Below, piece by piece: positions 43,597 through 63,483 of a stretch of DNA of 64,000 nucleotides. Source of the DNA: a virus (lineage: Duplodnaviria > Caudoviricetes); the IMG/VR virus record IMGVR_UViG_3300029288_000066, positions 96,001 through 160,000 of that record, one strand, 5' to 3'. Position 1 is the stretch's first letter. Every line of letters starts with the position of its first letter. Both the position numbers and the translations under genes were made by a program. The notes beneath the pieces were generated by a model. It was not told the DNA's origin, did no database searches, and saw nothing but the letters and a program-made list of their open reading frames with translations.

Positions 43597-43737
43597 AATC
43601 AAGGGAAAATTTGAAAAAGTGTAACCCTTTCGGGATGGCGGGATTTGAACCCGCAATGACCTTTCGGTCACCAGATTTTTAGTCTAGTGTCTGTACCAGT
43701 TCGACAACGAAGTAACTTTTTCGATTGCCACTTGATT
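43597..43737 (-). ncRNA. Scaffold (Y-RNA-like) ncRNA 1 carrying Leu-type tRNA body
   Basis: GTGGCAATCGAAAAAGTTACTTCG...CACTTTTTCAAATTTTCCC enclosing D, anticodon (loop CTAAAAA), variable and T arms. Confidence 0.7.
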
Positions 43738-43765
43738 TTATTTTCAATATTTTAAAGAACGATGT

Positions 43766-43806
43766 AAAAAGAAAAAGGGAGCTAGTTTTTCAACTGCTCC
43801 CTTTTT
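43766..43806 (-). terminator. Attenuator terminator, Leu/Cys operon
   Basis: GGGAGCAGTT-GAAA-AACTAGCTCCC + TTTTTCTTTTT; 5' arm complementary to AATTGCTCCC in leader. Confidence 0.88.
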
Positions 43807-43826
43807 AAGTTTGGTTTATCTCGCAT

Positions 43827-43907
43827 TTACGCAAAATCATACCACGTCAACTTGCTTTGGGAGCAATTGGCTAGTAAGAGGCATAAACACAAAGATATAG
43901 TTTTCAT
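43827..43907 (-). CDS. Attenuator leader peptide MKTISLCLCLLLANCSQSKLTWYDFA
   Basis: TTG TGT TTA TGC CTC TTA CTA run. Confidence 0.85.
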   Translation of the reverse strand: MKTISLCLCLLLANCSQSKLTWYDFA

Positions 43908-43920
43908 AATATATTTCTTT

Positions 43921-43985
43921 CTATTAAATAGTTCAATTTTTTACTTTCTACGCAAAGATACAAAAAAAGTTACATTAAATGCAAG
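43921..43985 (-). promoter_or_regulatory. tRNA-operon tandem promoter repeat, copy 2
   Basis: Near-identical to 22151-22216. Confidence 0.8.
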
Positions 43986-43995
43986 TTTTTTTCAT

Positions 43996-44607
43996 TTATT
44001 TTTTAAATAGCTGATTTACAATCTCTTCTTTTATTATATTTTTAATGATTTTTCTAGCCTCTTCAGTATTTCCATTTTTTTCTACACTTATAATCTCTAC
44101 ATTTTCTGGATTATAAACTATACAGTGATAAACTTTATCAACATCATTGAACTCGAACCCTTTTTTATATAATAACATAGCATCATAGCCCAACTTGCTC
44201 ATTGCACGCATAAACGCCTGGGGTGCTCCGTTATATTGTTCTACCCTTAAAGAGTGCCACACCTCATCCTCTGTATCACTATATTTTATTGCTTCATTTA
44301 TAGCCATTAACTTATCTGTTTCTATATCAGAACTCCAATTATTCGCATAATCTTCATCACTTATCATATCAAGAAACTTCTTCAAATCTCTTCTGTTTGC
44401 TTTAGAAGCGGACTTCATATTTGTTATTACTTTTCTTGGAGCTAAATTCACAGTATATGTAAGTTTTCCCCACATTGCAGCATTTTCTTTAGAATTTGTA
44501 AAATATATTCCAGGACCTTCAGCGTCAGGGACTCCAATTTTCCCTGCAAACTCATCTGAGAACTTCTCTATTTTAGAATTTGAACCGTGATAAAAGACTC
44601 CATTCAT
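43996..44607 (-). CDS. ADP-ribosyltransferase-like protein (ART-PolyVal-like)
   Basis: FYHGS, GPGIYFT, GYDA. Confidence 0.6.
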   Translation of the reverse strand: MNGVFYHGSNSKIEKFSDEFAGKIGVPDAEGPGIYFTNSKENAAMWGKLTYTVNLAPRKVITNMKSASKANRRDLKKFLDMISDEDYANNWSSDIETDKLMAINEAIKYSDTEDEVWHSLRVEQYNGAPQAFMRAMSKLGYDAMLLYKKGFEFNDVDKVYHCIVYNPENVEIISVEKNGNTEEARKIIKNIIKEEIVNQLFKK

Positions 44608-44689
44608 TTAAACTAATTTTTAATATAAATATCAAAAAATTTTTTTAAAAAACAATATTTTTTTTCTATTTATAAAAAACTATAAAGCC

Positions 44690-47600
44690 ATGTTAATAAA
44701 AAACAATAAAGCACACGCAGCAACTTTTTATTATAAAGTTGGGGGAAAAATCTTTCATGTTAAAATTCCTGGATACGTAACAGTTGAAATTCCAGATTTA
44801 ACAAGTACTTCTCAAATTGTATCAAACACTTCTGACCGTAGAATAAGACACATAGAGGATAAATTTGGATATAACTTTGAGACTACTTTTGAGGAACCGA
44901 ATGACCCAGATTTTCCAACATTTTCTATCGTTTCGTCAACATCATCGTTGGGTACAATCCATCCACTTGGAACAAGTAAAATTGCACAAGGAGAAAGTGT
45001 TACTTATACAATGACACCATCAACCTTAGAGTCCTTTCAATTAACTGCTGCTACCACTTATCCAGCATATGGAATAATTAGTCCCAGTGGAAGCTCTTTA
45101 AATGCATCTGGATGCTGTTACTTAAGTGCGTTTGTAGTAGATGGAGCAAGCGCTATAAGTGCTATTACTGGTAATCTTAGTGCAGCTACAACATATCAAT
45201 TCGCTCACGTATTTGCAACACACACAATTGCTTCTACTTTTTACTTGGCACAAAACACATTGTTTACAATGACACCAACAGCAGCTCCTGAATATAGAGT
45301 GTCAGCACATACTACAAATGAACCTTGTGGAACGCTATCTCCAAGTGGGAGCACTGTATATACATCGAATTTTTACTATCTACGTAGCTTTTTAATTGAT
45401 GGTTCGGAAAAAGTCAGTGACGTTACTGGAACAACAAGTGGAGTAACAACTTATTTGTTACATCCAGACACAAACCATTATATAAATCCAATTTTTTCAT
45501 ACGTGCAAGACGTGCCAAGATTCTCAATGACGCCCACAGCCACTGGATATTTAATAACTGCACATACAACAAATCCAAATTATGGGTCTATTACCCCAAG
45601 TGGAAGCTCAATTGGAACACTAAATTATAATTACCTTTCAAGCCTTCTCATTGATTCAGTTGAACAAATCAGTGGAATTACAGGGAATCCTACCGCATCT
45701 ACTCTTTATAATTTATCTATTGATAAAAGCTATGACTTTAATCCAGTATTTAGCCAAGTTCAAACTATTAAAAACTTTACATTGGCACCAACAGCAGCTC
45801 CTGGATACACTTTGTCTGCATGGTCTACAAACCAATCTTTAGGAGCTATTTCGCCAAGTGGAAGTACAATATATACATCAAACTTCTATTATCTATCAAG
45901 CCTTTTTGTTGATGCTGTTCAGAGGATTGCTAATGTTACTGGGACAACAAGCGCTAATACAACTTATGATTTAGCTGTTACAACAAACCACGATGTTAAC
46001 CCAACCTTTAGCTATTCTAGTGATACCAAAACGTTCACAATAACGCCAACAGCGGCTCCTGGATATTTATTAAATGTTCACACAACAGGCACAGCAGATG
46101 GTTCTATTACACCAAGCGGAAGTTCCGTTGGCACAGCAAACTATTATTATTTATCAAGTTTCTTGTTAGATTCAACTGAACAAATTAGTGGAATTACAGG
46201 GACAGCTCCATATAGCTCAACTTCAACTTATGATTTAACCGTTTCTGCAGCACATAAAGTTAATCCTGTATTCACTCAATTCTTAGATACCAAAACTTTC
46301 ACATTAAGCTCAGCTGCCACATTCTTAGTATCGGCTGTAACTTTAGGAAACTCTGGAGGTACAATAACTCCAAGTGGAATGTCAATAACAGCAGATGCTT
46401 ATTTACGCAACTTCTTTGTTGATGGTGATGATAAAGTAGCTCAAATTCCTGGAACAACTTATAACTTGACAGTAACAGGAAATAATGACGTCAATCCTGT
46501 GTTTAGTAGAAACAACACTACCATTACGATGACGCCAGAACGTTATTTTGCAGTAACATCATTTACATTAGATGGTGTAAGCAAAATTGGCGACATTGTG
46601 TCAAATGTTTATACAGGAATAAGCACATCTGGTTTAGTAGAAGTTTTGTTCTCTGAATATGTTCACTGGGAAGAAATGGATAGCTCGCTCAATGGAAGAG
46701 TTTACACCATTCAATTTAGCGGAAGCGATTTATACATTGGAGGAGCATTCTATGATACTATGATGATAGTCAACATGCCAAACAATATCGGAAAATGGAA
46801 CGGAACAAGATTTGTAAACGTCGGAGATTCATCTTCCTTTGGAGCACAATTCGGAATTGTTTATTCTATAGCATTTTCTGGAACAGATGTGTATGCAGCA
46901 GTATCTGATGCTAGTAGCAATTATTATGTTTCCAAATATGATGGAGCAAGTTGGACAAAGTTGGGTGGAAATTTTAATAATCCTGTTCGTGCTATTACTT
47001 TTTCTGGAACTGCCCTGTATGCAGGTGGTGGTTTTACCGCTAACGATGCGACTGCAATGACTGGACTATCTAGATGGGATGGAGCAAGTTGGTCAGAGGT
47101 CGGAGGCGGACTTTTAAATATTTCAGAAGGCGCACAAACTGTTTATTGTTTAGCTGTTTCTGGAACTAATTTATATGTTGGGGGAGACTTTACGACTGCT
47201 AATGGTACAACCACTTCTGCTAGAGGACTTGTTAAATGGGATGGAGAAAATTGGAGCGAAATTGGAAGTGGAGTAACAGTTGGATATACTCCAAAAGTTA
47301 TATGCATGGAACTTGCTAATGACAATATATATGTTGGAGGGACATTTATATCTGTTAGTGGTGGAACAATCGGCATAAGTGGAATTACCAAATGGGACGG
47401 AGTTAAGTGGAACGCAATTGGAGAAGGTATAGCAGCAGAAGCCCAAGTTTCGTCTATAAGAGTTAAAGGAACCGATGTATATGCTGGAGGTTATTTTACA
47501 AGAGTTAGTGGGACAACAATTCCAGTTAATTACCTTGCTAAGTTTGATGGTTCTAATTGGAGTGGTGTTGGTGACGGTACTGGTGGATTTATTGAAAACG

Positions 47601-47707
47601 GTGCAATGGCAATTTATAGCAATAGCTTGTATGTTGGAGGAGAATTTACGACAGTCAGTGCAACAACAATTGCAGCAAAATACCTAGCAAAATACAGGCC
47701 TATTTAA
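44690..47707 (+). CDS. Large S/T-rich fibre/adhesin-like virion protein: Ig-like (TPSG) repeats + C-terminal beta-propeller
   Basis: About 6 repeats of G.I(S/T)PSG...YLSS..VD; LYVGG.F...KWDG..W repeats; TATTTATA promoter. Confidence 0.7.
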   Translation: MLIKNNKAHAATFYYKVGGKIFHVKIPGYVTVEIPDLTSTSQIVSNTSDRRIRHIEDKFGYNFETTFEEPNDPDFPTFSIVSSTSSLGTIHPLGTSKIAQGESVTYTMTPSTLESFQLTAATTYPAYGIISPSGSSLNASGCCYLSAFVVDGASAISAITGNLSAATTYQFAHVFATHTIASTFYLAQNTLFTMTPTAAPEYRVSAHTTNEPCGTLSPSGSTVYTSNFYYLRSFLIDGSEKVSDVTGTTSGVTTYLLHPDTNHYINPIFSYVQDVPRFSMTPTATGYLITAHTTNPNYGSITPSGSSIGTLNYNYLSSLLIDSVEQISGITGNPTASTLYNLSIDKSYDFNPVFSQVQTIKNFTLAPTAAPGYTLSAWSTNQSLGAISPSGSTIYTSNFYYLSSLFVDAVQRIANVTGTTSANTTYDLAVTTNHDVNPTFSYSSDTKTFTITPTAAPGYLLNVHTTGTADGSITPSGSSVGTANYYYLSSFLLDSTEQISGITGTAPYSSTSTYDLTVSAAHKVNPVFTQFLDTKTFTLSSAATFLVSAVTLGNSGGTITPSGMSITADAYLRNFFVDGDDKVAQIPGTTYNLTVTGNNDVNPVFSRNNTTITMTPERYFAVTSFTLDGVSKIGDIVSNVYTGISTSGLVEVLFSEYVHWEEMDSSLNGRVYTIQFSGSDLYIGGAFYDTMMIVNMPNNIGKWNGTRFVNVGDSSSFGAQFGIVYSIAFSGTDVYAAVSDASSNYYVSKYDGASWTKLGGNFNNPVRAITFSGTALYAGGGFTANDATAMTGLSRWDGASWSEVGGGLLNISEGAQTVYCLAVSGTNLYVGGDFTTANGTTTSARGLVKWDGENWSEIGSGVTVGYTPKVICMELANDNIYVGGTFISVSGGTIGISGITKWDGVKWNAIGEGIAAEAQVSSIRVKGTDVYAGGYFTRVSGTTIPVNYLAKFDGSNWSGVGDGTGGFIENGAMAIYSNSLYVGGEFTTVSATTIAAKYLAKYRPI

Positions 47708-47726
47708 TCAAGAACATCAACAAATA

Positions 47727-47752
47727 AAAAGGGACTTCACAGTCCCTTTTTT
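47727..47752. terminator. Bidirectional intrinsic terminator
   Basis: AAAAGGGACT-TCAC-AGTCCCTTTTTT between convergent genes. Confidence 0.8.
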
Positions 47753-47963
47753 ACATCTTGCACTTAAAGTAAATGAATGCCCAAACCGTCCAAACAAAAC
47801 TGACCAAAGCAATAGTTAAACAAATAGAAAATGACGGATGTGGGTTGCTTTTACACATTTCCGCTCCAAAAAAACCAACAGCAAATCCTGGAATTATAAA
47901 AGCCGCTTCTAGTACATCTTTAAAAGCATTTCTCTTAAATAAAAAATCTATAATCTTTTTCAT
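47751..47963 (-). CDS. Small membrane protein
   Basis: Two hydrophobic segments. Confidence 0.6.
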   Translation of the reverse strand: MKKIIDFLFKRNAFKDVLEAAFIIPGFAVGFFGAEMCKSNPHPSFSICLTIALVSFVWTVWAFIYFKCKM

Positions 47964-47965
47964 GT

Positions 47966-48598
47966 TTACACTTTCTCAAATTGATTCTTATAATACTCTA
48001 TACAACTTTTTACATCTTCGGTCACATCCCTTTTGTCATCACTATAAATTCTACGCACATCAATTCCTGAAAACGAAAGTTTATAGTGAACATATTCTGG
48101 CGCATTTTGCTTATTTAATATCTTTTCCATAAATTCTTTTGTCATCCCTTCTCTTCTCATAATTCTTTCTTTTCTTATTTCCAAAGGAGCTTCAACAAAA
48201 ATAGCAAACTCAAAGATTTTATGGAATCTACTCTCTGTAAGAATAGCACTTTCCATCATAACAAATGGAAAATTTTCTTTATGTATTTTATCAGACTTCC
48301 AATCCAGAAATTCTTTTAAAACTGCTGGGTAGACAATATCCTCAATAAAATTTGCATTCTTTTTGTCTGAAAACAACATGTTTCCCAGACGCCTTCTATC
48401 CAACTCTCCATTGTTATAAATATCGCTTCCAAATAAATCACAAAAACTATCAACAACTTTTGAATCTTTGTTCATTATTTTCTTGGCACAATCATCCGTG
48501 TTAAAAACTGGAATCTCATTTTTTTCAAAAATTCTGGAAATAAAAGTCTTTCCACTTCCAACTCCACCCGTTATTGCAACCATTCTGTCAAAAATCAT
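47966..48598 (-). CDS. coaE: Dephospho-CoA kinase
   Basis: AITGGVGSGKT, DRRRLG, ESAIL. Confidence 0.88.
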   Translation of the reverse strand: MIFDRMVAITGGVGSGKTFISRIFEKNEIPVFNTDDCAKKIMNKDSKVVDSFCDLFGSDIYNNGELDRRRLGNMLFSDKKNANFIEDIVYPAVLKEFLDWKSDKIHKENFPFVMMESAILTESRFHKIFEFAIFVEAPLEIRKERIMRREGMTKEFMEKILNKQNAPEYVHYKLSFSGIDVRRIYSDDKRDVTEDVKSCIEYYKNQFEKV

Positions 48599-49479
48599 AT
48601 TTTAATCTCCTGCAGATTAAAACTACTTGGATAAATCTTCATATCTTTTGCATCCAGAAATTTTGACATGATTTCAGGCTCATACAGCGATATTTTTATG
48701 TTATGGCCACCTTTCAGCAGGTAAGGATAGAAATTGGCGCCAAATGCAATCTTATTCTGTTTCTCTGGCAATTTTTGAATGAGGTATTCCCAGTCAATAT
48801 CTTTTTGTTCTGCCCTTCCCTGATTTCCATAAGGCAATAAAACAAAATAATCAATCTTGTCTTTCCAAGAACCATAAATTTCTGCAAAGTAATCAATAGA
48901 TTCTTTGTCTGAAATGATAATGTGAAAATTTAGCCTTATACCTTGTTTACAATATAATCGTGCCGCACCTTCCCAATACCTTTTTAAATGCGGATGACAG
49001 CTAATTGCAACCCCACCACAATATTTCTTCGTAGCATTTAATATACGTGTTTGTTTATCGTTTACAAAAATTGTATCAATAAACATCCCATTTGTGGTAT
49101 AGTTCGGACAAATGTCAAATTCTTCTTTGAGCATTCTTAAGAGCTTAATAAAGTCTGGATGAGAAGTTGGCTCACCACCCCCTAATGCAACCTGAAAAGG
49201 CAAGCTTTCCTTCGGCATTGAGTTAAAAAAGGTGCGAATCTTTTCTACAACATTTTCATTGTGGGCACCTGGCTTGCTATCCATATAACAATATGGACAT
49301 TTTCCCTCACAATTCTCAGTGACTTTTACATCATAAAACTCAGGATACTTAAGTTCCGTGATTGGTTTTGAGGGGTTGATGGCAAATCTCAATGTTTTGC
49401 CACCACACCAGATTGCTCTGTAGTTAGCAGAATCCTCTCTCCTGGTTTTAATTCCAGGGACTTCCATTTCTTTATTCAT
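48595..49479 (-). CDS. Radical SAM protein
   Basis: CEGKCPYC, GGGEPT, TTNG. Confidence 0.9.
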   Translation of the reverse strand: MNKEMEVPGIKTRREDSANYRAIWCGGKTLRFAINPSKPITELKYPEFYDVKVTENCEGKCPYCYMDSKPGAHNENVVEKIRTFFNSMPKESLPFQVALGGGEPTSHPDFIKLLRMLKEEFDICPNYTTNGMFIDTIFVNDKQTRILNATKKYCGGVAISCHPHLKRYWEGAARLYCKQGIRLNFHIIISDKESIDYFAEIYGSWKDKIDYFVLLPYGNQGRAEQKDIDWEYLIQKLPEKQNKIAFGANFYPYLLKGGHNIKISLYEPEIMSKFLDAKDMKIYPSSFNLQEIKI

Positions 49480-49816
49480 CTTTATATTTAAGATTAAGCA
49501 CTGTAAAAAATTTCTCCATGATACCCATCAATATGTTATCATTTTGGTCTATCCGACAAACATACACTTGACTAAAATCAATATCTTCTGGCATGATATA
49601 ATCATCCTTACAACTAGAATCTTCCCAGCTGCTTATTGTTGTTTCATTACAATTACCAGCTTCTTTTTTAATGAATTCAAACATTTCTTTAAGAATTCCT
49701 TCTGCTTTCGAAGTGTCAACAATAAATAATTCTGTTGAACTGTTTGTAATCAAATCTACAACACTGTGTAGTTTGATGATGACTATGTTTTTCTTATCCA
49801 TCTCTTGTTGCCTCAT
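49472..49816 (-). CDS. ITNSS-motif protein 4
   Basis: HSVVDLITNSSTELF. Confidence 0.75.
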   Translation of the reverse strand: MRQQEMDKKNIVIIKLHSVVDLITNSSTELFIVDTSKAEGILKEMFEFIKKEAGNCNETTISSWEDSSCKDDYIMPEDIDFSQVYVCRIDQNDNILMGIMEKFFTVLNLKYKDE

Positions 49817-55024: not shown

Positions 55025-55981
55025 TTATAATTGTTTTCCTTTTTCGTATTGCTCCAATTCTTTTTTCCCAAGCATTATGTGATAATATCCTTCTGATAAT
55101 ACAGCTTTTTTCTTTGCTTCTAATTTATCTCTATCACGTTTTTGAAACCATTCTCCCTTCATTTCTATAACTAAATTTCTCTCTGGTAAATAAAAGTCTG
55201 TAACATGAATACTCTTTTCTCCTTCAAATTCATATTCTATTCTTAACGTTTCGTAGAAATACATTTCTTTTCTTTCATCCAAAACATCCATCATTCTTAG
55301 TTCATAAGAACTTCTGTAATAAACCTCCTTCCCATACCAAGTCGTGTGATATCCAGTTTGATATTTAGTATTTACATTTGGAATTGCTCTACCTTCAACA
55401 AACGCCAGTCTTAAAGACTTAGATGTTGTTCTTAAATTAATACCGTTCTTTTTAAAGAAAAAATGTGTTGTATTATACATTATCCCATATTCATTTCTTA
55501 TTTGAATCAGTGCTTTTTTATTTGTAAAATACTCTTTTGAAAGGAGTATTAAAGCATTTTGATTTGACACCTGTAAGTTTTTTTGTAAAACTCCCAATTT
55601 GTTAAACAGATTTTTGTATTGTATGAAAGAACTACATAAATTACAATATTTTTTTTTGTTTTCATTAGAAATTTCCACCCCACAGCTTAAACATATTTTT
55701 TTATCTCCTTTTTTTTCACACAAAGGTCTCGCAGATTTTCTACGATTTCTTTCTTCATCAGAAATATTACAATTATATCTTCCATTGTTTTTACCAGAAG
55801 TTTTTAATATTCTTTCAGTAGACTGTTTTCTTCCTCTTAATTTTTCAGACGCTCTTTCATAGGATTCTTCAGTTCTAAATTTTGATGAGTATGTTCTAGC
55901 GCACTCTCTTGAACAGAATTCTCCTGTGGAATACTTACTGTATTTTATAGCTTCTTTTTTATTACAACTTTTACATTTCAT
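55025..55981 (-). CDS. PD-(D/E)xK (TnsA-like) homing endonuclease
   Basis: YRSSYE, YE.LRI.Y, TDFYL...VIEMKG; N-terminal zinc finger. Confidence 0.8.
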   Translation of the reverse strand: MKCKSCNKKEAIKYSKYSTGEFCSRECARTYSSKFRTEESYERASEKLRGRKQSTERILKTSGKNNGRYNCNISDEERNRRKSARPLCEKKGDKKICLSCGVEISNENKKKYCNLCSSFIQYKNLFNKLGVLQKNLQVSNQNALILLSKEYFTNKKALIQIRNEYGIMYNTTHFFFKKNGINLRTTSKSLRLAFVEGRAIPNVNTKYQTGYHTTWYGKEVYYRSSYELRMMDVLDERKEMYFYETLRIEYEFEGEKSIHVTDFYLPERNLVIEMKGEWFQKRDRDKLEAKKKAVLSEGYYHIMLGKKELEQYEKGKQL

Positions 55982-56063
55982 AACAAACAAATTTACTATA
56001 AATATACAAAAAAATTCGAATATTCGATGCCAGATTAAAAATATTTCAAAGAACTTGTTTTTG

Positions 56064-57422: not shown

Positions 57423-57431
57423 ATTCTTTTG

Positions 57432-57503
57432 AGCCAATAGAGGGAATCGAACCCCCGAATTCCTCTTTACGAAAGAGGCGCAATACCACTATGCGATATT
57501 GGC
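57432..57503 (-). tRNA. tRNA-Thr(CGT)
   Basis: CCTCT-TTCGTAA-AGAGG. Confidence 0.9.
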
Positions 57504-57512
57504 ATTCTTCAG

Positions 57513-57584
57513 AGCCGACGAAGAGAATTGAACTCTTGACCTCTTCCTTACCAAGGAAGCGCTCTACCTCTGGGCTACGTCGGC
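57513..57584 (-). tRNA. tRNA-Thr(GGT)
   Basis: CTTCC-TTGGTAA-GGAAG. Confidence 0.92.
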
Positions 57585-57590
57585 AGGTTC

Positions 57591-57768
57591 TGTTTAACTG
57601 ATGGGATTCCAACCCACACGTCCTATAACCTGCATTTAATTACCGCACCGCAGCCGCCCTGTGCGAAAAAATTCGAGCCCCGTTAACTGACTAACCATTC
57701 CTCGAATGACGGGGCAAGCGTCGAGGTGTTTACGGTTTAGCGACTAGCAATTCCGCCACAGTTAAACA
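57591..57768 (-). ncRNA. 178-nt tRNA-like RNA with about 120-nt structured insert
   Basis: TGTTTAACTG/CAGTTAAACA stem, D arm GCG..CGC, T arm GTGGG-TTGGAAT-CCCAT. Confidence 0.65.
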
Positions 57769-57769
57769 T

Positions 57770-57846
57770 TGGGTGAAAGGTCGGCTTCGAACCGACAACC
57801 CTCTGAACCACAATCAGATACTCTAACCAATTGAGCTACAATCACC
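57770..57846 (-). tRNA. tRNA-His(GTG)
   Basis: TCTGA-TTGTGGT-TCAGA. Confidence 0.92.
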
Positions 57847-57850
57847 ATAT

Positions 57851-57983
57851 AAAAAAGGGGAAAAGTTAGAACAGGGTTTTTCATGTAAAATCCTGGAGTT
57901 TAACCAGTACCCATTGAATTAAAAGTCAATTGCTCAACACTGAGCTAATTTTACGAAGTAGCTGTTCAGATTGCCACCTTTTT
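57851..57983 (-). ncRNA. Scaffold (Y-RNA-like) ncRNA 2 carrying Lys(TTT)-like tRNA body
   Basis: GTGGCAATCTGAACAGCTACTTCG...CTGTTCTAACTTTTCCCC enclosing TAGCTCAG..GAGC, ATTGA-CTTTTAAT-TCAAT. Confidence 0.7.
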
Positions 57984-58016
57984 ATGTTTTCAATATTTTA
58001 AAGAACTTATTCTTAG

Positions 58017-58090
58017 GGTGTCGAACCAGATTCGAACTGGCGTTGACTAAGGTCACAGCTTAGCCGTAGAAACCAACACTACACCGACAC
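58017..58090 (-). tRNA. tRNA-His(GTG)
   Basis: CTAAG-CTGTGAC-CTTAG. Confidence 0.83.
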
Positions 58091-58092
58091 AG

Positions 58093-58177
58093 AAGGGGAG
58101 GAGGGATTCGAACCCCCGTAAACCCGAAGGCACTAACGTTAACAGCGTTCCGCTCTGACCAACTGAGCTACACCCCC
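58093..58177 (-). tRNA. tRNA-Asn(GTT), long variable arm
   Basis: AACG-CTGTTAA-CGTT; GCC-TTCG-GGT variable hairpin. Confidence 0.85.
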
Positions 58178-58189
58178 ATGTAATTTTTT

Positions 58190-59035
58190 TTATTTTTTAT
58201 AATCTTTTAGCCATTTTCTAATTGCATTGTCAGAAACACCATATTTTTTGCCAACCGCACAATAATTTGTTTTTTTAATTTCTTGCATCAACTGTTCATA
58301 AGACGGCCTTTCAACCCTTCTTCTACTTTTTTTATAACAATCTATACATTCTTTTGCTTTTACATCCTTCTCTTTCCCACATTTGCAAACTCTTGTTTTT
58401 TCACTTTTCCTTTTAATGTTTCTAAAACAATATGTGTTTAACGTAGAATCACAATTTGGACATATGATTCTTAGATTTTTTAATCTATTATCCATATGAT
58501 TTCCATTAATATGGTCAAGAATTAAAATTAATTTATTTCCATTCCAATTTACATCCTGTCCACACAACTCACAACATTCTTTTTTTAAACCTTCATCATA
58601 CAATCTTTTTTTAAAATTAGAAGGTAAGCTTTTTCCAACTACAAAATAATATTCAATTGGGTTCTTTTTGCAACCAGTAATTACACCTTGTTCTTTTAAT
58701 CGCTTATACAGCTCTTTTTTTCCAGTAAAATGTGAAATGTCTACATTATATCGAGCAATATAGTTTTTTATTGTTGTAAAACTTGCAGATGCTGGATTAA
58801 TATTAAGATTTCTTAAAGCATCAGAATAAGAATATGCATTTTTAACAGCTTCTAGTATTTCTTTTTCTGAATATTTCCAAATTCCATACTTTGCAACTTT
58901 TAAACCAAGACGCTTTGCTTTATGAGCTACGGAATGTTTACTCTTGCCTAACTTTCGAGAACAATATATAGCACCATGCTCTTCATAATTGTTCTTAAGA
59001 AATAAAATTTCATTTTCTACCCATTTATATTTCAT
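58190..59035 (-). CDS. HNH homing endonuclease
   Basis: CELC...LDHINGNHMDNRLKNLRIICPNC; C-terminal HTH. Confidence 0.9.
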   Translation of the reverse strand: MKYKWVENEILFLKNNYEEHGAIYCSRKLGKSKHSVAHKAKRLGLKVAKYGIWKYSEKEILEAVKNAYSYSDALRNLNINPASASFTTIKNYIARYNVDISHFTGKKELYKRLKEQGVITGCKKNPIEYYFVVGKSLPSNFKKRLYDEGLKKECCELCGQDVNWNGNKLILILDHINGNHMDNRLKNLRIICPNCDSTLNTYCFRNIKRKSEKTRVCKCGKEKDVKAKECIDCYKKSRRRVERPSYEQLMQEIKKTNYCAVGKKYGVSDNAIRKWLKDYKK

Positions 59036-59101
59036 ATTGACATCTTTATTATAAATATGCCAAAAAATTATTTTTTCAATATTTCAAAGAACTTAATTTT
59101 G

Positions 59102-59188
59102 CGTTTCCTGTAAGATTCGAACTCACGATGGGGATTACTCCTCGTCAGGTTAACAGCCTGATGCCGTCGGCCACTTGGCTAAAGAAAC
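59102..59188 (-). tRNA. tRNA-Asn(GTT), long variable arm
   Basis: TCAGG-CTGTTAA-CCTGA. Confidence 0.87.
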
Positions 59189-59191
59189 ATA

Positions 59192-59349
59192 AATTCGGGG
59201 AAAAGGAGCAAAAGTGTTTTTTCTATACTCTAACCAACTGAGCTACGTGCTCCATTTTTTTTATTATTTGGGAGCACGACTGGACTCGAACCAGCGACCT
59301 TTTGTTATCAAGACAAATGCGAAGTAACTTTTACAATTGCCACCGAATT
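59192..59349 (-). ncRNA. Scaffold (YrlA-like) ncRNA 3 carrying circularly permuted tRNA
   Basis: Order: anticodon-like arm, T arm, acceptor 3' strand, linker, acceptor 5' strand, D arm, inside GTGGCAAT..TTACTTCG/CACTTTT..TTTTCCCC. Confidence 0.75.
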
Positions 59350-59375
59350 ATTTCAAAATTTTAAAGAACGATATA

Positions 59376-59410
59376 AAACAAAAAACCCAGACTCTTTTGG
59401 AATCTGGGTG
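59376..59410 (-). terminator. Attenuator terminator, Asn/His/Thr operon
   Basis: ACCCAGATTC-CAAAA-GAGTCTGGGT + TTTTTGTTTT; 5' arm complementary to GTCTGGGTG in leader. Confidence 0.87.
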
Positions 59411-59431
59411 GCTTTTTGTTTTCTTATATTT

Positions 59432-59521
59432 TTATTTTAAGATAGACATATTACACCCAGACACACATGTATTATTATGTTTGTTGGTCTTCGTGTTAAT
59501 ATGTATACTTAAAGCTAACAT
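59432..59521 (-). CDS. Attenuator leader peptide MLALSIHINTKTNKHNNTCVSGCNMSILK
   Basis: CAT ATT AAC ACG AAG ACC AAC AAA CAT AAT AAT ACA. Confidence 0.83.
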   Translation of the reverse strand: MLALSIHINTKTNKHNNTCVSGCNMSILK

Positions 59522-59537
59522 TTCAATATTTCCTTTT

Positions 59538-59603
59538 TATTTAAATAGTATGATTTTTTTACTTTCTACGCAAAGGTACAAAAAAAGTTACATTAAATGC
59601 AAG
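59538..59603 (-). promoter_or_regulatory. tRNA-operon tandem promoter repeat, copy 3
   Basis: Near-identical to copies 1 and 2 (TACCTTTG variant). Confidence 0.8.
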
Positions 59604-59659
59604 TTTTTTTTCGTTTATTTTTAAAATAATTTTTAAGTTGTTGATTGTTAATAATTTAA

Positions 59660-60004
59660 TTAATCAATTATTTTTCTCTTTGGAACATTATGTTCATCCA
59701 GCAAACTCATAACTTCATCTCTCGCAGAAAGTGGAGCATAACATCGAATATCTTCGTGCATATTTTTTTTACCTTCATTTGTCGCAGTTGATAAATCAAT
59801 TCGTTCATCATCATCTAACTCCTTTGTACAACCGTTATTCCACTGTTCATTAAATTCATCATCAGTTAAAAGTTTATTCTTAAAATCTTCAATTGATTCT
59901 CCCGTATAATGACCAATTGGGCTAATGGCTGACATTGTGCCATCATCATTCCAAATTTCTTTGGTCTCGGTATAATTTCTATATGCTTCCTGTAATCTAC
60001 TCAT
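59660..60004 (-). CDS. Hypothetical protein
   Basis: ORF track; host-type promoter. Confidence 0.65.
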   Translation of the reverse strand: MSRLQEAYRNYTETKEIWNDDGTMSAISPIGHYTGESIEDFKNKLLTDDEFNEQWNNGCTKELDDDERIDLSTATNEGKKNMHEDIRCYAPLSARDEVMSLLDEHNVPKRKIID

Positions 60005-60046
60005 ACACCAAATATATAAAAAAGTTTCAATAAAGTCAAATTGGAT

Positions 60047-60735
60047 TTAAATTTTTTCCAAAATAATTCTCTCAACGATTTTTTTCATATAATTCCAATC
60101 ATCTTCTGATGTTTTATAATTTGGTGTTATGAAAGGGGCGTGTGAATCCCATTCTTCGCCCACTTTTCCTTCTGAAGATTTTATTATCTTTTGAGCTCCA
60201 CTTTTCTGTAAGTATGATGCAAGCCTTCCTTTTTTATTAATGGAAAGCTTTAATATAACTCCTTCACGCAAAACTTCTACATCAACTCTTTTCCCGTCGA
60301 ACATATTTTTGTGGTCTGTTGTGATTAAGTCAAAAACAACAAGGAGAGCTCCATCTTCATCAACACTTATGTTTTTAATATCAATTTTTTTTGGAATTTC
60401 CTCGGCACATAATTTTTCAATTACCCATTTTAATTCAACATCTGTTTCCTTGTCTGTCTTCTCTGGTATTGGAATAATATTAAAAGGGGTTGCCAACACT
60501 CTGTTTCCTGCCGTGAACAAAAGATATTTACCTCTATCTGGGAACCACTTTAAAACTTTATGTCTCCATAGGCTGGCCTAATATTATAAACAGTTCTTCC
60601 TATAAGGTCTTCAAATTTCTCTATTCCCAGGTGTTTTAATTGCTGTTGGTATTCTTCCTTGGAAAAATCTTTAAAGCCCGTCACATCAACTCCTGAGAGC
60701 TCCTGAAGTCTTTTTTTATATGATTCTGTCAGCAT
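60047..60735 (-). pseudogene. LTESY-tagged protein split by a frameshift near 60560
   Basis: ORF 60735-60550 continues in shifted frame as HKVLKWFPDRGKYLLFTAG... to 60047. Confidence 0.55.
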
Positions 60736-60743
60736 ATCTTTAT

Positions 60744-61577
60744 TTATATAACTTCAATATATTTAGGAGGAATAATCCCATTATATTTAACTGAATGTAC
60801 AGTTTTTAAACTAAACCAATAATCTTTTGGATTAATACTAACAACATTGTATTTCTTGTCATATCTTTTTGGATTATTTTTGGCATATAAATTATATAAC
60901 TTTTTTATATTTTTCCATACCATTTCTCTATTGCCCATGCCGTCAACAACAACTGGTTCATCTAATTCATTAAAATCGACCATTAATAAATTGTTGTTTG
61001 GGATTTTAATTTTTAATACAATTGGACTACCACCTTTAAATTTATTTAACTCTTCATCTTCTGATGCTTCAATTGAATAATACTCTGCTTTTTCATATAA
61101 ATCTGTTAAATATGGGTTTTTCAATCCTTTGGTCATAATATTATCTAACACAGCATCCGTTGTACCATGATAAAAAATATTATTGTCGCCAATTATATTT
61201 GATTCCTCAAATATCTTTATTTTACTATATTTCTCCAGTTCGGGGTCATCTTTATAAAAGAATTGAAAATCTACAATTCGCCCATTCCACTTTGGTTTAA
61301 ACACGTCGCTGGTAAATTTTGAATGGTAATGCTCAGTTCTTTTTAAAGAAGAAATTTTATCTGATTTCGGAATTATGATTCCAATATCCAAATCAGAATC
61401 GTCCTTGGCCGTTCCCTTTGCTTCAGAGCCAATAATAAAAGCATTAAGGATTGGATAATCAACTCTCGATGTTAAATTGTTTCTTAGCATAGACACAATA
61501 TCCTTTTTGCTTGGATATTTGAGCATCCTGTCAATTTCCTCTCTAATCAATTTCCTTATGTATTTTTTATCTTCCAT
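60744..61577 (-). CDS. Minimal nucleotidyltransferase + ADP-ribosyltransferase-like fusion
   Basis: IRKLIRE tag; GSEAKG...SDLD; FYHGT...GL..PYLT. Confidence 0.65.
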   Translation of the reverse strand: MEDKKYIRKLIREEIDRMLKYPSKKDIVSMLRNNLTSRVDYPILNAFIIGSEAKGTAKDDSDLDIGIIIPKSDKISSLKRTEHYHSKFTSDVFKPKWNGRIVDFQFFYKDDPELEKYSKIKIFEESNIIGDNNIFYHGTTDAVLDNIMTKGLKNPYLTDLYEKAEYYSIEASEDEELNKFKGGSPIVLKIKIPNNNLLMVDFNELDEPVVVDGMGNREMVWKNIKKLYNLYAKNNPKRYDKKYNVVSINPKDYWFSLKTVHSVKYNGIIPPKYIEVI

Positions 61578-62371
61578 TATCTTAACTCATCAAATAAGTG
61601 AACTTGACTTTTCGGTACTTCTATAATAACATCATCATATCCCAGTTCTTTCATGGAAATCACTCTATGTCTTCCATCTGAAAATCCAAGTCTTCCATAA
61701 TTTATTGAAACGTATGGAGCTTGAAATTCTACATCACCCCAATCGGTTCTCTGATTTGTTTTTCGGTTTATGTACCTTTGGTCTTTTGAGTAATCCATCC
61801 AATATTGCTTTGCTCTTTCAACTCTTCCTGGATGGTCAGCAGTTTCTCTGGTGTCGAAAGCATAATCTGGTTCGTCTTTTTTGTGTCTGGCCAGTAGTTT
61901 ATTTATATTAACAACAATGAGCGTATCATCTTTAGAGTCCCTAAGTTTATATTTTGAGAGCATGCTCTCTGCAGGTGGATAGTCATTGTTCTCAATTTCA
62001 TCTAATCCTTCATATTCATCTGGTCCTTTAGAGACATAAATTTCTTTGGCTTTTTTTACTTCCCCCGAATAAAAATATTCTCCTGGATTATAAGCATCAT
62101 AAACATTTTCGGTTGGGACAAGCGCTTGAATTACATGGAATGGTTCCTCGTGATATACATGATTATTTTCAGCATGTTCTATTGCAAATTTTTTACTTAA
62201 AGTCACATAATCTTTATCTCTAAATTCAAAAACATCATTTGGGGCTGCTCTATATATTGTAACAAATGGAACGTTCATTTGATTACTCAGGCCTTTTCCG
62301 AGTATCCTTGGGGTTTCATCAACACCAGCCAACTCTTGTAATCTTCTTTTATATGATTCTGATAAGTTCAT
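61577..62371 (-). CDS. ART-like + ParB/Srx-like fusion
   Basis: LSESY tag; VTIYRA...DYVTLS..FA.EH; DGRHR. Confidence 0.55.
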   Translation of the reverse strand: MNLSESYKRRLQELAGVDETPRILGKGLSNQMNVPFVTIYRAAPNDVFEFRDKDYVTLSKKFAIEHAENNHVYHEEPFHVIQALVPTENVYDAYNPGEYFYSGEVKKAKEIYVSKGPDEYEGLDEIENNDYPPAESMLSKYKLRDSKDDTLIVVNINKLLARHKKDEPDYAFDTRETADHPGRVERAKQYWMDYSKDQRYINRKTNQRTDWGDVEFQAPYVSINYGRLGFSDGRHRVISMKELGYDDVIIEVPKSQVHLFDELR

Positions 62372-62374
62372 TTT

Positions 62375-63067
62375 TTAATAAGCGTATTTTTTTACTCTAG
62401 AGTCTTGTGAAAAGCTGTATGCATCCGAAGTTTTTGAGTCAAATCCGAAATCAACCACAACAACTCTCGGAACGCCATCTCTCAAAACCTCTCCATAGGT
62501 TGATATTCTTGAGAAATCCCCAGGGAGTGGATATTGAAAATCTTCTGTAAATTGGTTAAGGTCATACGCAAATTCATTTTCGCTTAAATCTCTCCCAGGC
62601 ATTCCCCATCCTACTTTCCCTTGTATGTTTGCCATCCAGGCTGAAACTTCTTCTGGACTAGTACCTGTCAATTCTCTAAATCTTCGTGGAGTTATTTTCT
62701 TTGCAAGTTCCATTTCAATCCACATATCATCATTATCAACATCAAACACTCTTGCTACAACATCATAATTTTGTTTATATGCCCAGGATTCTGCATCATT
62801 TTGAGCACGTCCTCTTTCGTTCAGAGCAACCTTAAGAACCTTTTCGTCATCAATTCTAAAAACTGCTCTTCCGCTTCCCACACCAATTTTACCAAGCAAG
62901 TGTTGTGTTGCATATCTTTGTTTGCCAGCAAAAGACATTATGTTTTTAAATTCTTCAGGATTAAAGTTGGTTGGATAAGCCATTTCATCCATCATAAAGT
63001 CTTGTGCTTCACAAAAAATTTCGTCAAGACATTCTCTTATAACTTTTCTTATGACTTGCTTTTCCAT
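62375..63067 (-). CDS. Protein kinase-like protein
   Basis: IRKVIRE tag; GVGSGRAVF, VLKVA, QN..E, VVVDFG. Confidence 0.7.
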   Translation of the reverse strand: MEKQVIRKVIRECLDEIFCEAQDFMMDEMAYPTNFNPEEFKNIMSFAGKQRYATQHLLGKIGVGSGRAVFRIDDEKVLKVALNERGRAQNDAESWAYKQNYDVVARVFDVDNDDMWIEMELAKKITPRRFRELTGTSPEEVSAWMANIQGKVGWGMPGRDLSENEFAYDLNQFTEDFQYPLPGDFSRISTYGEVLRDGVPRVVVVDFGFDSKTSDAYSFSQDSRVKKYAY

Positions 63068-63103
63068 TAAAAAAATCTTTTTATATAAATAGTTATAAAA
63101 TGG

Positions 63104-63136
63104 AAAAACCCCCAGCGTTTTTCGGAGGGGGTTTTT
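63104..63136 (-). terminator. Intrinsic terminator after scaffold ncRNA 4
   Basis: ACCCCC...GGGGGT + TTTT. Confidence 0.75.
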
Positions 63137-63139
63137 ATA

Positions 63140-63483
63140 AAGTAATTTTATGGGAATTCTAGGTTGAGCGTCACCCCTTAGTCCCACCCAAATCTTTTCA
63201 GACATCACCTAGTGAAGGAATGGGTTTATAGGCCAAGTATTATTAAGGCATTTACTTTTCATCCCAGTTTTTTTAAGGTGTTTACTGTTAACCCATAGTT
63301 TTAAGTTTCATGTCAACTCAGAAATTTTAAGCTTTTAAGAAGCTGCTCTAAACCTTCTAACACCCACACTTAAGTTAAGGCTTTAACCGTTAGCGCCAGG
63401 ATGGCCGCAGAGCGTGCAGACCATTTTTTTTGCTGTTTATGAACATAGAAGTATCTCAAATCTTTACCACAAAAAAATTACTT
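63140..63483 (-). ncRNA. Scaffold (Y-RNA-like) ncRNA 4 with about 280-nt unknown cargo
   Basis: AAGTAATTTT..GTGGTAAAGATTTGAGATACTTC ... CTCAACCTAGAATTCCCATAAAATTACTT; own promoters, boxA-like motif and terminator. Confidence 0.65.

What the first reader, a model, noticed from the sequence alone, without database searches (positions are those of the whole stretch)
43597..63483. Family of four ncRNAs with one covarying terminal scaffold and swappable cargo (Y-RNA-like)
Seen at 43597, 57851, 59192 and 63140: 5' GTGG(C/T)AA-N-stem-NTACTTC and 3' stem'-N-TTCCC, where the inner stem covaries (GAAAAAG/CTTTTTC, GAACAG/CTGTTC, GTAAAAG/CTTTTGC, TTGAG/CTCAA). Cargo differs: Leu-like tRNA body, Lys-like body, permuted tRNA, and about 280 nt unknown. 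The tRNA bodies have no free acceptor end and distorted anticodon loops, so they cannot be charged as transcribed. Two are the first RNA after an attenuator. Established: bacterial Y RNAs (YrlA) join a bulged Ro60-binding helix to a tRNA-mimic domain and co-occur with RtcB. Inference: Ro60-tethered tRNA decoys for anticodon nucleases or adaptors for repair enzymes.
Basis: partly seen in the sequence, partly recalled or inferred. Interest (0 to 1): 0.85.

Follow-up and report, generated by a model that had tools for sequence, protein, structure and literature searches.

The report
Phage Y RNA family inside tRNA operons
A 229-kb phage scatters at least eleven small RNAs through its tRNA gene blocks; they share one conserved double-stem "handle" but carry different, mostly tRNA-like inserts, and they are very probably partner RNAs (Y RNAs) of the phage's own Ro60 ring protein, a large and divergent example of a known kind of particle.

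Summary
The motif GTGGYAA-N-TACTTC occurs 4 times in the window (0.03 expected) and 8 times in the genome. With three divergent copies, the 229-kb phage has 11 members, all on the minus strand.

Each member has:
- an outer helix of 6-9 bp
- G(bulged U)GG paired with CCC
- an inner helix of 6-8 bp
- a conserved loop, WUACUUCG...(A)nCAC
- a variable insert ("cargo")

Both helices covary (0 of 20,000 permutations; 11 of 13 pairs show compensatory changes).

The phage encodes a TROVE/Ro60 protein, and three handle RNAs sit directly upstream of it. It also encodes RtcB. The same handle lies next to Ro60 homologues in at least nine further phage contigs or records and in bacterial MAG contigs. Three contigs found by DNA pattern alone all carry TROVE.

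These are therefore very probably Y RNAs of a divergent YrlA-like type. They fall below Rfam's threshold and lack the canonical GNCGAA motif. They lie within tRNA operons, some of them behind leader-peptide attenuators.

This scan has already reported similar handle-RNA arrays beside Ro60-like genes in other phages.

The parts
43595..43739 (-). E8: handle RNA with a type-II (Leu-like) tRNA body that lacks an acceptor stem. It is the first RNA after the Leu/Cys leader and terminator, and tRNA-Leu(UAA) follows about 12 nt downstream.
   Evidence: Motif match; covariance model R1 39.8 bits, E 2.9e-6; Rfam tRNA model positions 7-64 only, 30.5 bits; the unconstrained fold gives outer helix, bulged U, inner helix and cargo hairpins. 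Its anticodon-like loop CUAAAAA differs by one base from the CUUAAAA of the neighbouring tRNA-Leu(UAA).
57850..57985 (-). E7: handle RNA enclosing a complete but non-canonical cloverleaf. It has a 7-bp acceptor stem starting at the G of UACUUCG, an 8-nt loop CUUUUAAU, T loop UUAAACU, and a D loop without GG.
   Evidence: Motif match; R1 38.4 bits; Rfam tRNA 48.3 bits over the full model, but no ARAGORN call; the fold gives a cloverleaf inside the handle; orthologues in two other phages keep the odd T loop, and their acceptor stems covary.
59190..59351 (-). E6: handle RNA whose cargo runs anticodon-like hairpin, T arm, loop-closed acceptor stem, D arm (YrlA topology plus one extra hairpin). It is the first RNA after the His/Asn/Thr leader and terminator.
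   Evidence: Motif match; fold; Rfam YrlA 30.8 bits on 59227-59299, below the cut-off of 69; the orthologue in a 372-kb phage has compensatory changes in the T stem, acceptor stem and inner helix, and a much longer loop closing the acceptor.
63144..63478 (-). E5: 335-nt handle RNA with about 270 nt of non-tRNA cargo. It is a stand-alone unit with its own upstream promoter-like sequence and its own terminator.
   Evidence: Motif match; no Rfam match at E up to 10; the single-sequence fold is not better than shuffles (z = 0.70); RNAs with the same handle and 260-300 nt of cargo lie beside Ro60 in L116 and L119-L123, and one lies away from Ro60 in the 372-kb phage (L041).
63109..63128 (-). Intrinsic terminator directly after E5.
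   Evidence: Terminator scan; sequence read.
59385..59409 (-). Terminator of the leader-peptide attenuator that precedes E6.
   Evidence: Terminator scan; leader ORF and hairpin read.
43765..43801 (-). Terminator of the leader-peptide attenuator that precedes E8 (coordinates approximate, from reading).
   Evidence: Sequence read: G+C-rich hairpin followed by a run of T.
43751..43760 (-). GTTCTTTAAA, a boxA-like motif 21-29 nt upstream of those handles that are not preceded by a tRNA. Further copies are at 57997-58006, 59360-59369 and 63482-63491.
   Evidence: 11 matches in the window against 1.45 expected; positions relative to the handles. The boxA reading is an inference from resemblance to rRNA-operon boxA and was not tested.
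28736..30166 (-). RtcB RNA ligase gene (476 aa). It is part of the phage's RNA-repair equipment and is not adjacent to the handle RNAs.
   Evidence: Pfam RtcB 199.9 bits.

Best explanation
These are phage-encoded Y RNAs, the non-coding partner RNAs of the phage's own Ro60 (TROVE + vWA) ring protein.

Shown:
- Eleven paralogous RNAs share a handle made by pairing of their 5' and 3' ends. It consists of an outer helix, a conserved G(bulged U)GG/CCC step followed by YAAU, an inner helix, and a conserved internal loop WUACUUCG/(A)nCAC.
- The handle is under RNA-level selection.
- The handle is genomically coupled to Ro60 in this phage, in related phages and in bacterial contigs.
- The interior varies. 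Three members carry nothing. One has a T arm with further hairpins. One has a T arm and a closed acceptor stem. Three have the YrlA arrangement (T arm, closed acceptor, D arm). One is a full odd cloverleaf. One is a Leu-like body without an acceptor stem. One is a 270-nt multi-hairpin domain.

Inferred:
- Ro60 binds the conserved bulged part of the handle, as it binds the bulged stem of known Y RNAs.
- The RNAs are co-transcribed with the tRNAs and cut out by the same tRNA end-processing. Four begin 7-12 nt after a tRNA and end a few nt before the next one. Two follow codon-sensing attenuators.
- The different cargoes give the Ro60 particle different partners or gate it differently. By analogy with Ro60-Y RNA-PNPase particles and the Salmonella rsr-yrlBA-rtcBA operon, they most plausibly link it to tRNA-handling or RNA-decay enzymes (host PNPase, RtcB, RNase P, modification enzymes).
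For: 1. Real, structured family. The motif occurs 4 times against 0.03 expected. The genome holds 11 members, all on the tRNA strand. Cognate arms pair far better than non-cognate arms, 0 of 20,000 permutations. On 20 sequences, 86% of cells are paired against 68% shuffled, and 11 of 13 pairs show compensatory change. The paired cells include G-U pairs, which would be mismatches on the other strand. The unconstrained minimum-energy fold gives the outer helix with the bulged U in all 11 members and the inner helix as well in 10 of them.

2. Ro60 link.
- The TROVE ORF is 531 aa (Pfam 75.7 bits, weak vWA). Its nearest solved structures are 9KOP and 9L5Y, the phiLo phage Ro60 (E 8e-22).
- E0, E1 and E1b lie in tandem between a promoter-like sequence and this ORF.
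- Nine homologous Ro60 loci from eight further contigs or records (40-79% identity) all carry UACUUCG handle RNAs within about 450 nt upstream of the gene.
- Three contigs with true handles found from a DNA pattern alone all encode TROVE. In two of them a handle lies within about 300 nt of the gene. In the third, the 372-kb phage already counted above, handles also lie far from it. Two contigs with chance matches encode none.
- Only 63 of 50,697 phage records match this Ro60.
- In 892 kb of unrelated viral DNA preselected for the 5' motif, the model hit once. That hit has the same score as a hit in the related 372-kb phage.
- Bacterial MAG contigs with Ro60 homologues (Saprospiraceae, Verrucomicrobia, SAR202) carry 1-5 such handles upstream of the gene.

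3. Y RNA anatomy.
- A long stem is formed by the RNA ends, with a single-base bulge on the 5' strand and a conserved 5' motif near the 5' end. Chen et al. place the Rsr-binding motif in the same position (PMC4201824).
- E6, E4 and E9 have the YrlA order: T arm, closed acceptor, D arm.
- The layout of the Rfam YrlA consensus (outer helix with GGCGAA, internal loop, 7-bp helix, loop, tRNA-like domain, 3' AAAACUUG) parallels this handle.

4. Precedent. Phage Ro60 binds phage-encoded Y-like RNAs lying upstream of its gene and forms complexes with host PNPase (PMC12135203). [quoted passage not shown]
Against: - There is no binding, expression or end-mapping data.
- The published Ro60-binding motif GNCGAA(N0-1)G (the 'CGAA motif') is absent in its strict form. 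This phage has GGCAAU or GGUAAA, and relatives have AGUGAU, AGCGAU or AGUGAG.
- Rfam YrlA never reaches its cut-off of 69 bits. The 30.8 bits on E6 is no better than what adjacent ordinary tRNAs score (27-32 bits).
- Eight of the 11 copies lie 40-76 kb from the Ro60 gene, so their link to Ro60 rests on the shared handle.
- E7 could be an unusual pre-tRNA rather than a stable handle RNA.
- E5, at 319 nt (335 with the outer helix), is far outside the usual 80-130 nt of Y RNAs.
Confidence: 0.8

Rival explanations
1. The handle is a leader-trailer processing or 'caging' duplex for unusual tRNAs. It would hold non-canonical or permuted pre-tRNAs until nucleases (RNase P, RNase Z, a double-strand RNase) and a ligase such as RtcB turn them into working tRNAs. 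Ro60 would be only a neighbour.
For: Elements lie inside tRNA operons and abut tRNAs. E7 is a full cloverleaf whose G1 is the G of UACUUCG. E6, E4 and E9 are permuted tRNA-like bodies, and the phage has RtcB and an Rnl2-type ligase.
Against: Three members (E1, E1b, E2) have no tRNA-like cargo, yet they keep the handle, and E2's orthologue shows a compensatory change. E5 carries 270 nt of non-tRNA cargo. E8 has no acceptor stem. The handle is not a bulge-helix-bulge motif, and no tRNA splicing endonuclease was found. This reading does not explain why the handle sits beside Ro60 in every related locus.
Confidence: 0.08
2. The handle is the binding site of another protein (for example RtcB, a nuclease, or an uncharacterised phage RNA-binding protein). 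It would lie next to Ro60 only because both belong to one RNA-repair or surveillance module.
For: The strict GNCGAA motif is missing. The most invariant element, UACUUCG...CAC, lies in the inner loop and not where Ro60 contacts known Y RNAs. Known Y RNAs do carry a second module that binds an effector (PMC4201824, PMC12135203).
Against: Adjacency is to Ro60 specifically, across Ro60 identities from 27% to 79% and in both bacteria and phages. RtcB is 85 kb from the Ro60 cluster in this genome. The published phage case shows direct Ro60 binding of upstream Y-like RNAs.
Confidence: 0.08
3. These are DNA-level elements: inverted repeats of a small mobile element, or recombination sites flanking cassettes, with no function as RNA.
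For: The elements have terminal inverted repeats around variable cargo and are dispersed in many copies.
Against: All copies are on the tRNA strand. The helices contain G-U pairs and covary while the repeat sequence itself is not conserved. Orthologous copies sit at syntenic places in a relative and show compensatory changes. I saw no target-site duplications and no copies inside genes.
Confidence: 0.02

Closest known systems
YrlA / YrlB, bacterial and mycobacteriophage Y RNAs bound by Rsr (Ro60) (Chen et al. 2014, PMC4201824; Rfam RF02553)
   Same: Both are encoded beside Ro60. The 5' and 3' ends form a long interrupted stem with a conserved 5' motif. Some members carry a tRNA-like domain in the order T arm, closed acceptor, D arm (E6, E4, E9). 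Short members without a tRNA domain (E1, E1b, E2) parallel YrlB. RtcB is present in the genome.
   Different: The handle sequence differs: GGCAAU instead of GNCGAA, plus a conserved UACUUCG...CAC loop. No member reaches the Rfam cut-off. One genome has 11 copies, most of them dispersed in tRNA operons far from Ro60. The cargoes include a non-permuted cloverleaf, a body without an acceptor stem, and a 270-nt domain.
Thermus phage phiLo Ro60 with Yrl1 and Yrl2 (PMC12135203; PDB 9KOP, 9L5Y)
   Same: A phage-encoded Ro60, the nearest solved relative of this protein by sequence (E 8e-22), with Y-like RNAs encoded just upstream of its gene. Neither phage encodes PNPase, so a host enzyme would have to be recruited.
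   Different: phiLo has two RNAs identified by a CGAA motif in an internal bulge. No tRNA-operon embedding and no modular cargo family is described for it. Binding is shown there and not here.
Deinococcus radiodurans Yrn1 with Rsr and PNPase (RYPER), and metazoan Y RNAs
   Same: The modular logic is the same: one stem binds Ro60, and the rest of the RNA tethers or gates. The helix formed by the RNA ends has a single-base bulge on its 5' strand.
   Different: There is no sequence similarity. Those RNAs are 80-130 nt, come as 1-4 genes per genome, and are not part of tRNA operons.
Circularly permuted tRNA genes of Cyanidioschyzon merolae
   Same: E6, E4 and E9 encode the 3' half of a tRNA before the 5' half, with a helix joining the outer ends.
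   Different: Those precursors end in a bulge-helix-bulge motif cut by the splicing endonuclease and give working tRNAs. Here the joining helix is the Ro60-linked handle, no such endonuclease was found, and cargo-free members exist.

Membership tests
Y RNA (Ro60-associated ncRNA, functional class) | Encoded next to a Ro60/TROVE gene | tested here: met
   E0, E1 and E1b lie directly upstream of the TROVE ORF. The same holds at nine homologous phage loci, in further contigs found by pattern, and in bacterial loci.
Y RNA (Ro60-associated ncRNA, functional class) | 5' and 3' ends form a long stem with a bulged, conserved helix | tested here: met
   Outer and inner helices covary. The bulged U between G and GG (or AG) is present in all 11 members here and in most relatives.
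Y RNA (Ro60-associated ncRNA, functional class) | Conserved Ro60-contact motif GNCGAA(N0-1)G / 'CGAA' near the 5' end (PMC4201824, PMC12135203) | tested here: not met
   The 11 copies have GGCAAU, GGCAAC, GGCAAA, GGCCAU or GGUAAA/C at that position. Relatives have AGUGAU, AGCGAU or AGUGAG. The motif is similar in place and composition but is not the published one.
Y RNA (Ro60-associated ncRNA, functional class) | Physical binding to Ro60 | not testable with these tools
   Needs gel-shift (EMSA), RNA immunoprecipitation or a structure.
YrlA (Rfam RF02553) | Covariance-model score at or above the gathering cut-off (69 bits) | tested here: not met
   The best hit is 30.8 bits on E6 (model positions 27-81 only). 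The minimal copies beside Ro60 get no hit at all. Relatives score 31-47 bits. Ordinary tRNA pairs score 27-32 bits.
YrlA (Rfam RF02553) | tRNA-like domain in the order T arm, loop-closed acceptor stem, D arm | tested here: met
   Met for E6, E4 and E9. E3 has a T arm and closed acceptor without a clear D arm. Not met for E7, E8, E5, E0, E1, E1b and E2.
Ordinary tRNA gene (RF00005 / ARAGORN) | Full cloverleaf with an acceptor stem that can be freed, and canonical elbow (G18 G19 with U55 C56) | tested here: not met
   Only E7 matches the whole tRNA model (48.3 bits). ARAGORN rejects it. Its T loop is UUAAACU, its D loop lacks GG, and its anticodon loop has 8 nt. E8 matches model positions 7-64 only.
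Permuted pre-tRNA matured through a circular intermediate | Bulge-helix-bulge motif at the joined ends, and a tRNA splicing endonuclease | tested here: not met
   The handle has a 1-nt bulge and asymmetric internal loops, not a 3-4-3 bulge-helix-bulge. PF01974 is absent from the record, which is 82% complete.

The most novel reading that the evidence does not exclude
The phage runs a tRNA-damage response in which codon-sensing attenuators switch on spare tRNAs and, with them, Ro60 partner RNAs. The cargo of these RNAs displays near-copies of particular anticodon loops:
- CUUUUAA+U against tRNA-Lys(UUU)
- CUAAAAA against the CUUAAAA of tRNA-Leu(UAA)
- CUUCCAA against the UUUCCAA of tRNA-Gly(UCC)

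The Ro60 particle would then act as an isoacceptor-specific decoy or inhibitor of host anticodon nucleases, or as a guide that brings cut tRNAs to RtcB. That would be a programmable, multi-RNA Ro60 system aimed at host tRNA-cleaving defences.
Probability: 0.15. Interest if true: 0.85.

Novelty: new variant of a known kind. Interest (0 to 1): 0.6.

Why it matters
Ro60 and Y RNAs are conserved from bacteria to humans, and Ro60 is a major lupus and Sjogren autoantigen. Even so, the role of the tRNA-like part of bacterial Y RNAs is still unknown.

A phage that makes eleven Y-like RNAs on one handle, with a graded series of cargoes, offers a natural set of variants for asking what the cargo does. 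The series runs from none, through a T arm only and the YrlA type, to a whole cloverleaf and a large domain. The RNAs are also co-regulated with tRNA operons.

The handle (UACUUCG...CAC with a bulged G(U)RG helix) also marks Ro60 loci in Saprospiraceae, Verrucomicrobia and SAR202 contigs. It is missed by Rfam, so current annotation misses the Y RNAs at these Ro60 loci.

Tried and rejected
- **Rfam.** At gathering and at permissive thresholds on the window, the Ro60 locus and E5, no family matches the handle. YrlA hits are sub-threshold and are equalled by ordinary tRNA pairs, so they do not discriminate.
- **Exact-pattern scan of viral contigs.** It gave 113 loci, nearly all chance matches as expected from the pattern's information content. 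Only three contigs proved real, one of them represented by three loci (L041, L059 and probably L107).
- **BLAST of the cargoes against the phage's 53 tRNAs.** Only generic T-arm and D-arm matches appeared. The cargoes are not recent copies of neighbouring tRNAs, and 'Leu-like' and 'Lys-like' rest on loop and variable-arm features alone.
- **The 270-nt cargo.** The single-sequence fold is not better than shuffles (z = 0.70). MAFFT with RNAalifold over eight large-cargo RNAs misaligned the two groups. The six relatives alone give several hairpins with a little covariation but no recognisable domain.
- **Permuted-tRNA maturation.** No splicing endonuclease was found, and the handle is not a bulge-helix-bulge.
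- **PNPase and CCA-adding enzyme.** Neither was found in this record, which is 82% complete.
- **Literature.** Two Y RNA reviews (PMC10870794, PMC6047535) are not held, so I could not check what they say about copy number.
- **Not attempted.** I did not predict the structure of the Ro60 protein.

Full report
**What the window is.** The window is bases 96,001-160,000 of a 228,886-bp IMG/VR virus record (33% G+C, estimated 82% complete). ARAGORN finds 53 tRNA genes in the genome, all on the minus strand, plus a permuted tmRNA call. The window holds 31 of these tRNAs. The elements in the finding are also on the minus strand.

**Checking the observation.** GTGGYAA-N(4-14)-TACTTC matches four times in the window, all on the minus strand. 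Shuffles give 0.03 on average. The whole genome has eight exact matches.

I built a covariance model (R1) from ten short members taken from this phage and its relatives. With that model and direct reading I found three further divergent copies. The 11 members are listed below by the genome coordinate of the first G of GUGG:
- E0 215498, E1 215311, E1b 215236
- E2 175974, E3 175270, E9 174450, E4 173320
- E5 159470 (window 63470), E6 155343 (window 59343), E7 153977 (window 57977), E8 139731 (window 43731)

UACUUC (UUCAUC in E1b and E9) starts exactly 17 nt after the first G in all 11.

**Anatomy.** Reading 5' to 3', each element has these parts:
- G, a bulged U, and GG, pairing with the 3' CCC
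- YAAU on the 5' side, opposite a 3' bulge of about 3-6 nt that ends in UU
- an inner helix of 6-8 bp
- the loop sequence WUACUUCG on the 5' side
- the cargo
- an A-run, often ending in CAC, on the 3' side, leading back into the inner helix

The unconstrained minimum-energy fold gives the outer helix with the bulged U in all 11 members, and the inner helix as well in 10 of them.

**Is the structure selected?** I paired each 5' arm with its own 3' arm and with the 3' arms of the other ten members. The arms were located only by the conserved sequence anchors.
- The outer helix averages 5.2 contiguous pairs with its own arm, against 1.3 with other arms.
- The inner helix averages 6.0 against 3.9.
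- None of 20,000 permutations reached the observed sum for either helix.

On 20 sequences from seven phage contigs or records aligned to the model:
- 86% of cells form standard pairs, against 68% after shuffling and 40-61% when partners are slid by 1-3 columns.
- Eleven of 13 pairs show changes on both sides.
- G-U pairs are present.

This alignment is fitted to the model, so it leans toward the structure. The permutation test does not have that bias.

Orthologous copies in a 372-kb phage whose Ro60 is 79% identical show compensatory changes in the handle helices. They also show them in the T stem and acceptor stem of the cargo.

**The Ro60 test.** It is a 531-aa ORF at about genome 213494-215089, on the minus strand. 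Pfam TROVE scores 75.7 bits, and there is a weak vWA match. Its nearest solved relatives by sequence are 9KOP and 9L5Y, the Ro60 of Thermus phage phiLo (E 8e-22).

E0, E1 and E1b stand in tandem directly upstream of this ORF on the same strand. They follow a promoter-like sequence of the type I take to be Bacteroidota. A terminator-like hairpin lies between E1b and the start codon.

**Relatives.** A protein-guided search of viral contigs gave eight loci with Ro60 at 40-79% identity (full-length tblastn). A 635-kb GenBank megaphage added one more. Two of these loci come from the 372-kb phage already mentioned. In each locus that includes the upstream region, handle RNAs with the same UACUUCG...CAC core lie within about 450 nt upstream of the gene. 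Typically there is one short RNA and one with about 260-300 nt of cargo.

I also approached the link from the other direction. Three contigs found only by a DNA pattern, whose matches proved to be true handles, all encode TROVE. In two of them a handle lies within about 300 nt of the gene. In the third, the 372-kb phage, handles also lie far from the gene. Two contigs with chance matches (100% and 95% complete) encode no TROVE. TROVE is rare in phages: only 63 of 50,697 phage records match this protein.

As a specificity control, I ran the model over 892 kb of unrelated viral DNA that had been preselected for the 5' motif. It hit once. By its identical score, that hit appears to belong to the related 372-kb phage.

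The nearest cellular Ro60 homologues (40-50% identity) are in MAG contigs labelled Saprospiraceae, Lewinella, Aureispira, Verrucomicrobia and SAR202. Seven of the ten loci with usable upstream sequence carry one to five handles of the form G-Y-A-G-Y-G-A-G, 8 nt, UUACUUCG upstream of the gene, often amid tRNA arrays. Some of these contigs may be phage DNA binned with bacteria. I did not test that.

**Comparison with known Y RNAs.** Chen et al. define likely bacterial and phage Y RNAs by three features: they are encoded next to Ro60, they have a motif GNCGAA(N0-1)G near the 5' end, and at least one per species has a tRNA-like domain (PMC4201824).
- Adjacency is met.
- The tRNA-like domain in YrlA order (T arm, closed acceptor, D arm) is met for E6, E4 and E9.
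- The motif is not met in its strict form. This phage has GGCAAU or close variants.

The Rfam YrlA consensus printed has the same layout as this handle: an outer helix containing GGCGAA, an internal loop, a 7-bp helix, a short loop, the tRNA-like domain, and a 3' AAAACUUG loop. Here the 3' internal loop reads AAAACUUU, AAAAAUU or AAAUUUU. I take this as probable distant homology, but that is an inference.

Rfam itself does not place these RNAs in YrlA. The best score is 30.8 bits against a cut-off of 69, it covers only the tRNA-like part, and adjacent ordinary tRNAs score the same.

The phiLo study shows that a phage Ro60 binds two Y-like RNAs encoded upstream of its gene. It also shows that these form complexes with host PNPase (PMC12135203). 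This phage has no PNPase. It does have RtcB (window 28736-30166) and an Rnl2-type ligase.

**Cargo.**
- E1, E1b and E2 have only a loop of about 24-30 nt.
- E0 has a T arm plus two hairpins.
- E3 has a hairpin, a T arm and a closed acceptor stem.
- E6, E4 and E9 have the YrlA arrangement. E6 and E9 add an anticodon-like hairpin.
- E7 is a complete cloverleaf whose first base is the G of UACUUCG. It has an 8-nt loop CUUUUAAU, a T loop UUAAACU and a D loop without GG. Its orthologues in two phages keep this odd elbow and have covarying acceptor stems, but their anticodon loops differ (CUUUAGU and AUUUCCA).
- E8 has a variable arm and a T arm but no acceptor stem.
- E5 has about 270 nt of several hairpins with no match to any Rfam family.

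The cargoes are not recent copies of the phage's own tRNAs. Some loops resemble real anticodon loops of tRNAs in the same operons. That observation is suggestive and nothing more.

**Genomic setting.** E2, E3, E9 and E4 each begin 7-12 nt after a tRNA or tRNA-like gene. E8 ends about 12 nt before tRNA-Leu(UAA). This suggests release by tRNA end-processing, which is an inference.

E8 and E6 are the first RNAs after leader-ORF attenuators. Other agents have reported these attenuators. E5 is a separate unit with its own terminator.

Handles that are not preceded by a tRNA are preceded by GTTCTTTRAA, which occurs 11 times in the window against 1.45 expected.

**Verdict.** The Y-RNA-like reading is strongly supported by independent genomic evidence. 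Membership of YrlA as Rfam defines it fails, so I file this as a new variant of a known kind: divergent Y RNAs, unusually numerous, modular, and embedded in regulated tRNA operons.

The decoy or adaptor function is untested. The literature I could search describes no multi-copy, modular Y RNA family in phage tRNA operons.

This scan has already reported comparable handle-RNA arrays beside Ro60 or Ro60-like genes in other phages, including one with a UACUUCG handle. Within the scan, this is therefore a recurrence on new DNA.

Noticed in passing
window 43765-43906 and 59385-59541 (minus strand): Short leader ORFs rich in the amino acids served by the tRNAs downstream, each followed by a terminator, precede the Leu/Cys block and the Asn/His/Thr block. 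Other agents have already reported these as codon-matched attenuators. Here they also control the first handle RNA of each block.
   Followed up: partly
window 57590-57770 (minus strand): A stretch of about 180 nt between tRNA-His and tRNA-Thr has complementary 10-nt ends and a T-arm-like hairpin around a G+C-rich insert. It looks like a tRNA-shaped shell with a large insert. Neither ARAGORN nor Rfam calls it.
   Followed up: no
window 21883-21892, 21978-21987, 38621-38630, 43327-43336, 43751-43760, 56045-56054, 57997-58006, 59083-59092, 59360-59369, 63482-63491 (minus strand): GTTCTTTRAA recurs at the borders of RNA gene blocks (11 matches in the window against 1.45 expected; ten on the minus strand are listed here, one more is on the plus strand). 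It resembles boxA of rRNA operons, so it may be an antitermination or processing signal.
   Followed up: partly
genome 196604-196678 (outside the window): ARAGORN calls a tRNA with anticodon CUA, which would be an amber suppressor. The phage may read TAG as an amino acid in some genes.
   Followed up: no
whole genome: No tRNA-Glu was detected among the 53 tRNAs of this 82%-complete record, although every other amino acid is covered.
   Followed up: no
L117 3587-3655 (genome 175986-176054, minus strand): A non-canonical tRNA-like gene directly upstream of E2. It has a Gly-type loop CCUCCAA with C at position 33 and an odd T loop. Rfam tRNA gives 38 bits and ARAGORN does not call it.
   Followed up: no
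L140, L141, L143, L144, L145 (MAG contigs labelled Saprospiraceae, Verrucomicrobia, SAR202): Ro60 homologues in these contigs sit beside dense tRNA arrays (six to 18 tRNAs within the few kb shown in three of them) together with three to five handle RNAs. Ro60, Y RNAs and tRNA arrays may form one recurrent module, or these contigs may be phage DNA binned with bacteria.
   Followed up: partly
L133 16640-16665 (genome about 215140-215165, minus strand): A terminator-like hairpin with a run of T lies between the last handle RNA (E1b) and the Ro60 start codon. Ro60 expression may therefore depend on read-through.
   Followed up: no
L041 about 3900-4105 compared with window 59190-59351: In the 372-kb relative, the loop that closes the acceptor stem of the E6 orthologue is about 55 nt longer. 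This loop tolerates insertions.
   Followed up: partly
window 43996-44607, 55025-55990, 30423-31505: ORFs interleaved with the tRNA blocks include an ART-PolyVal ADP-ribosyltransferase-like protein and two DUF7487 proteins. The second DUF7487 match is below the Pfam cut-off.
   Followed up: no
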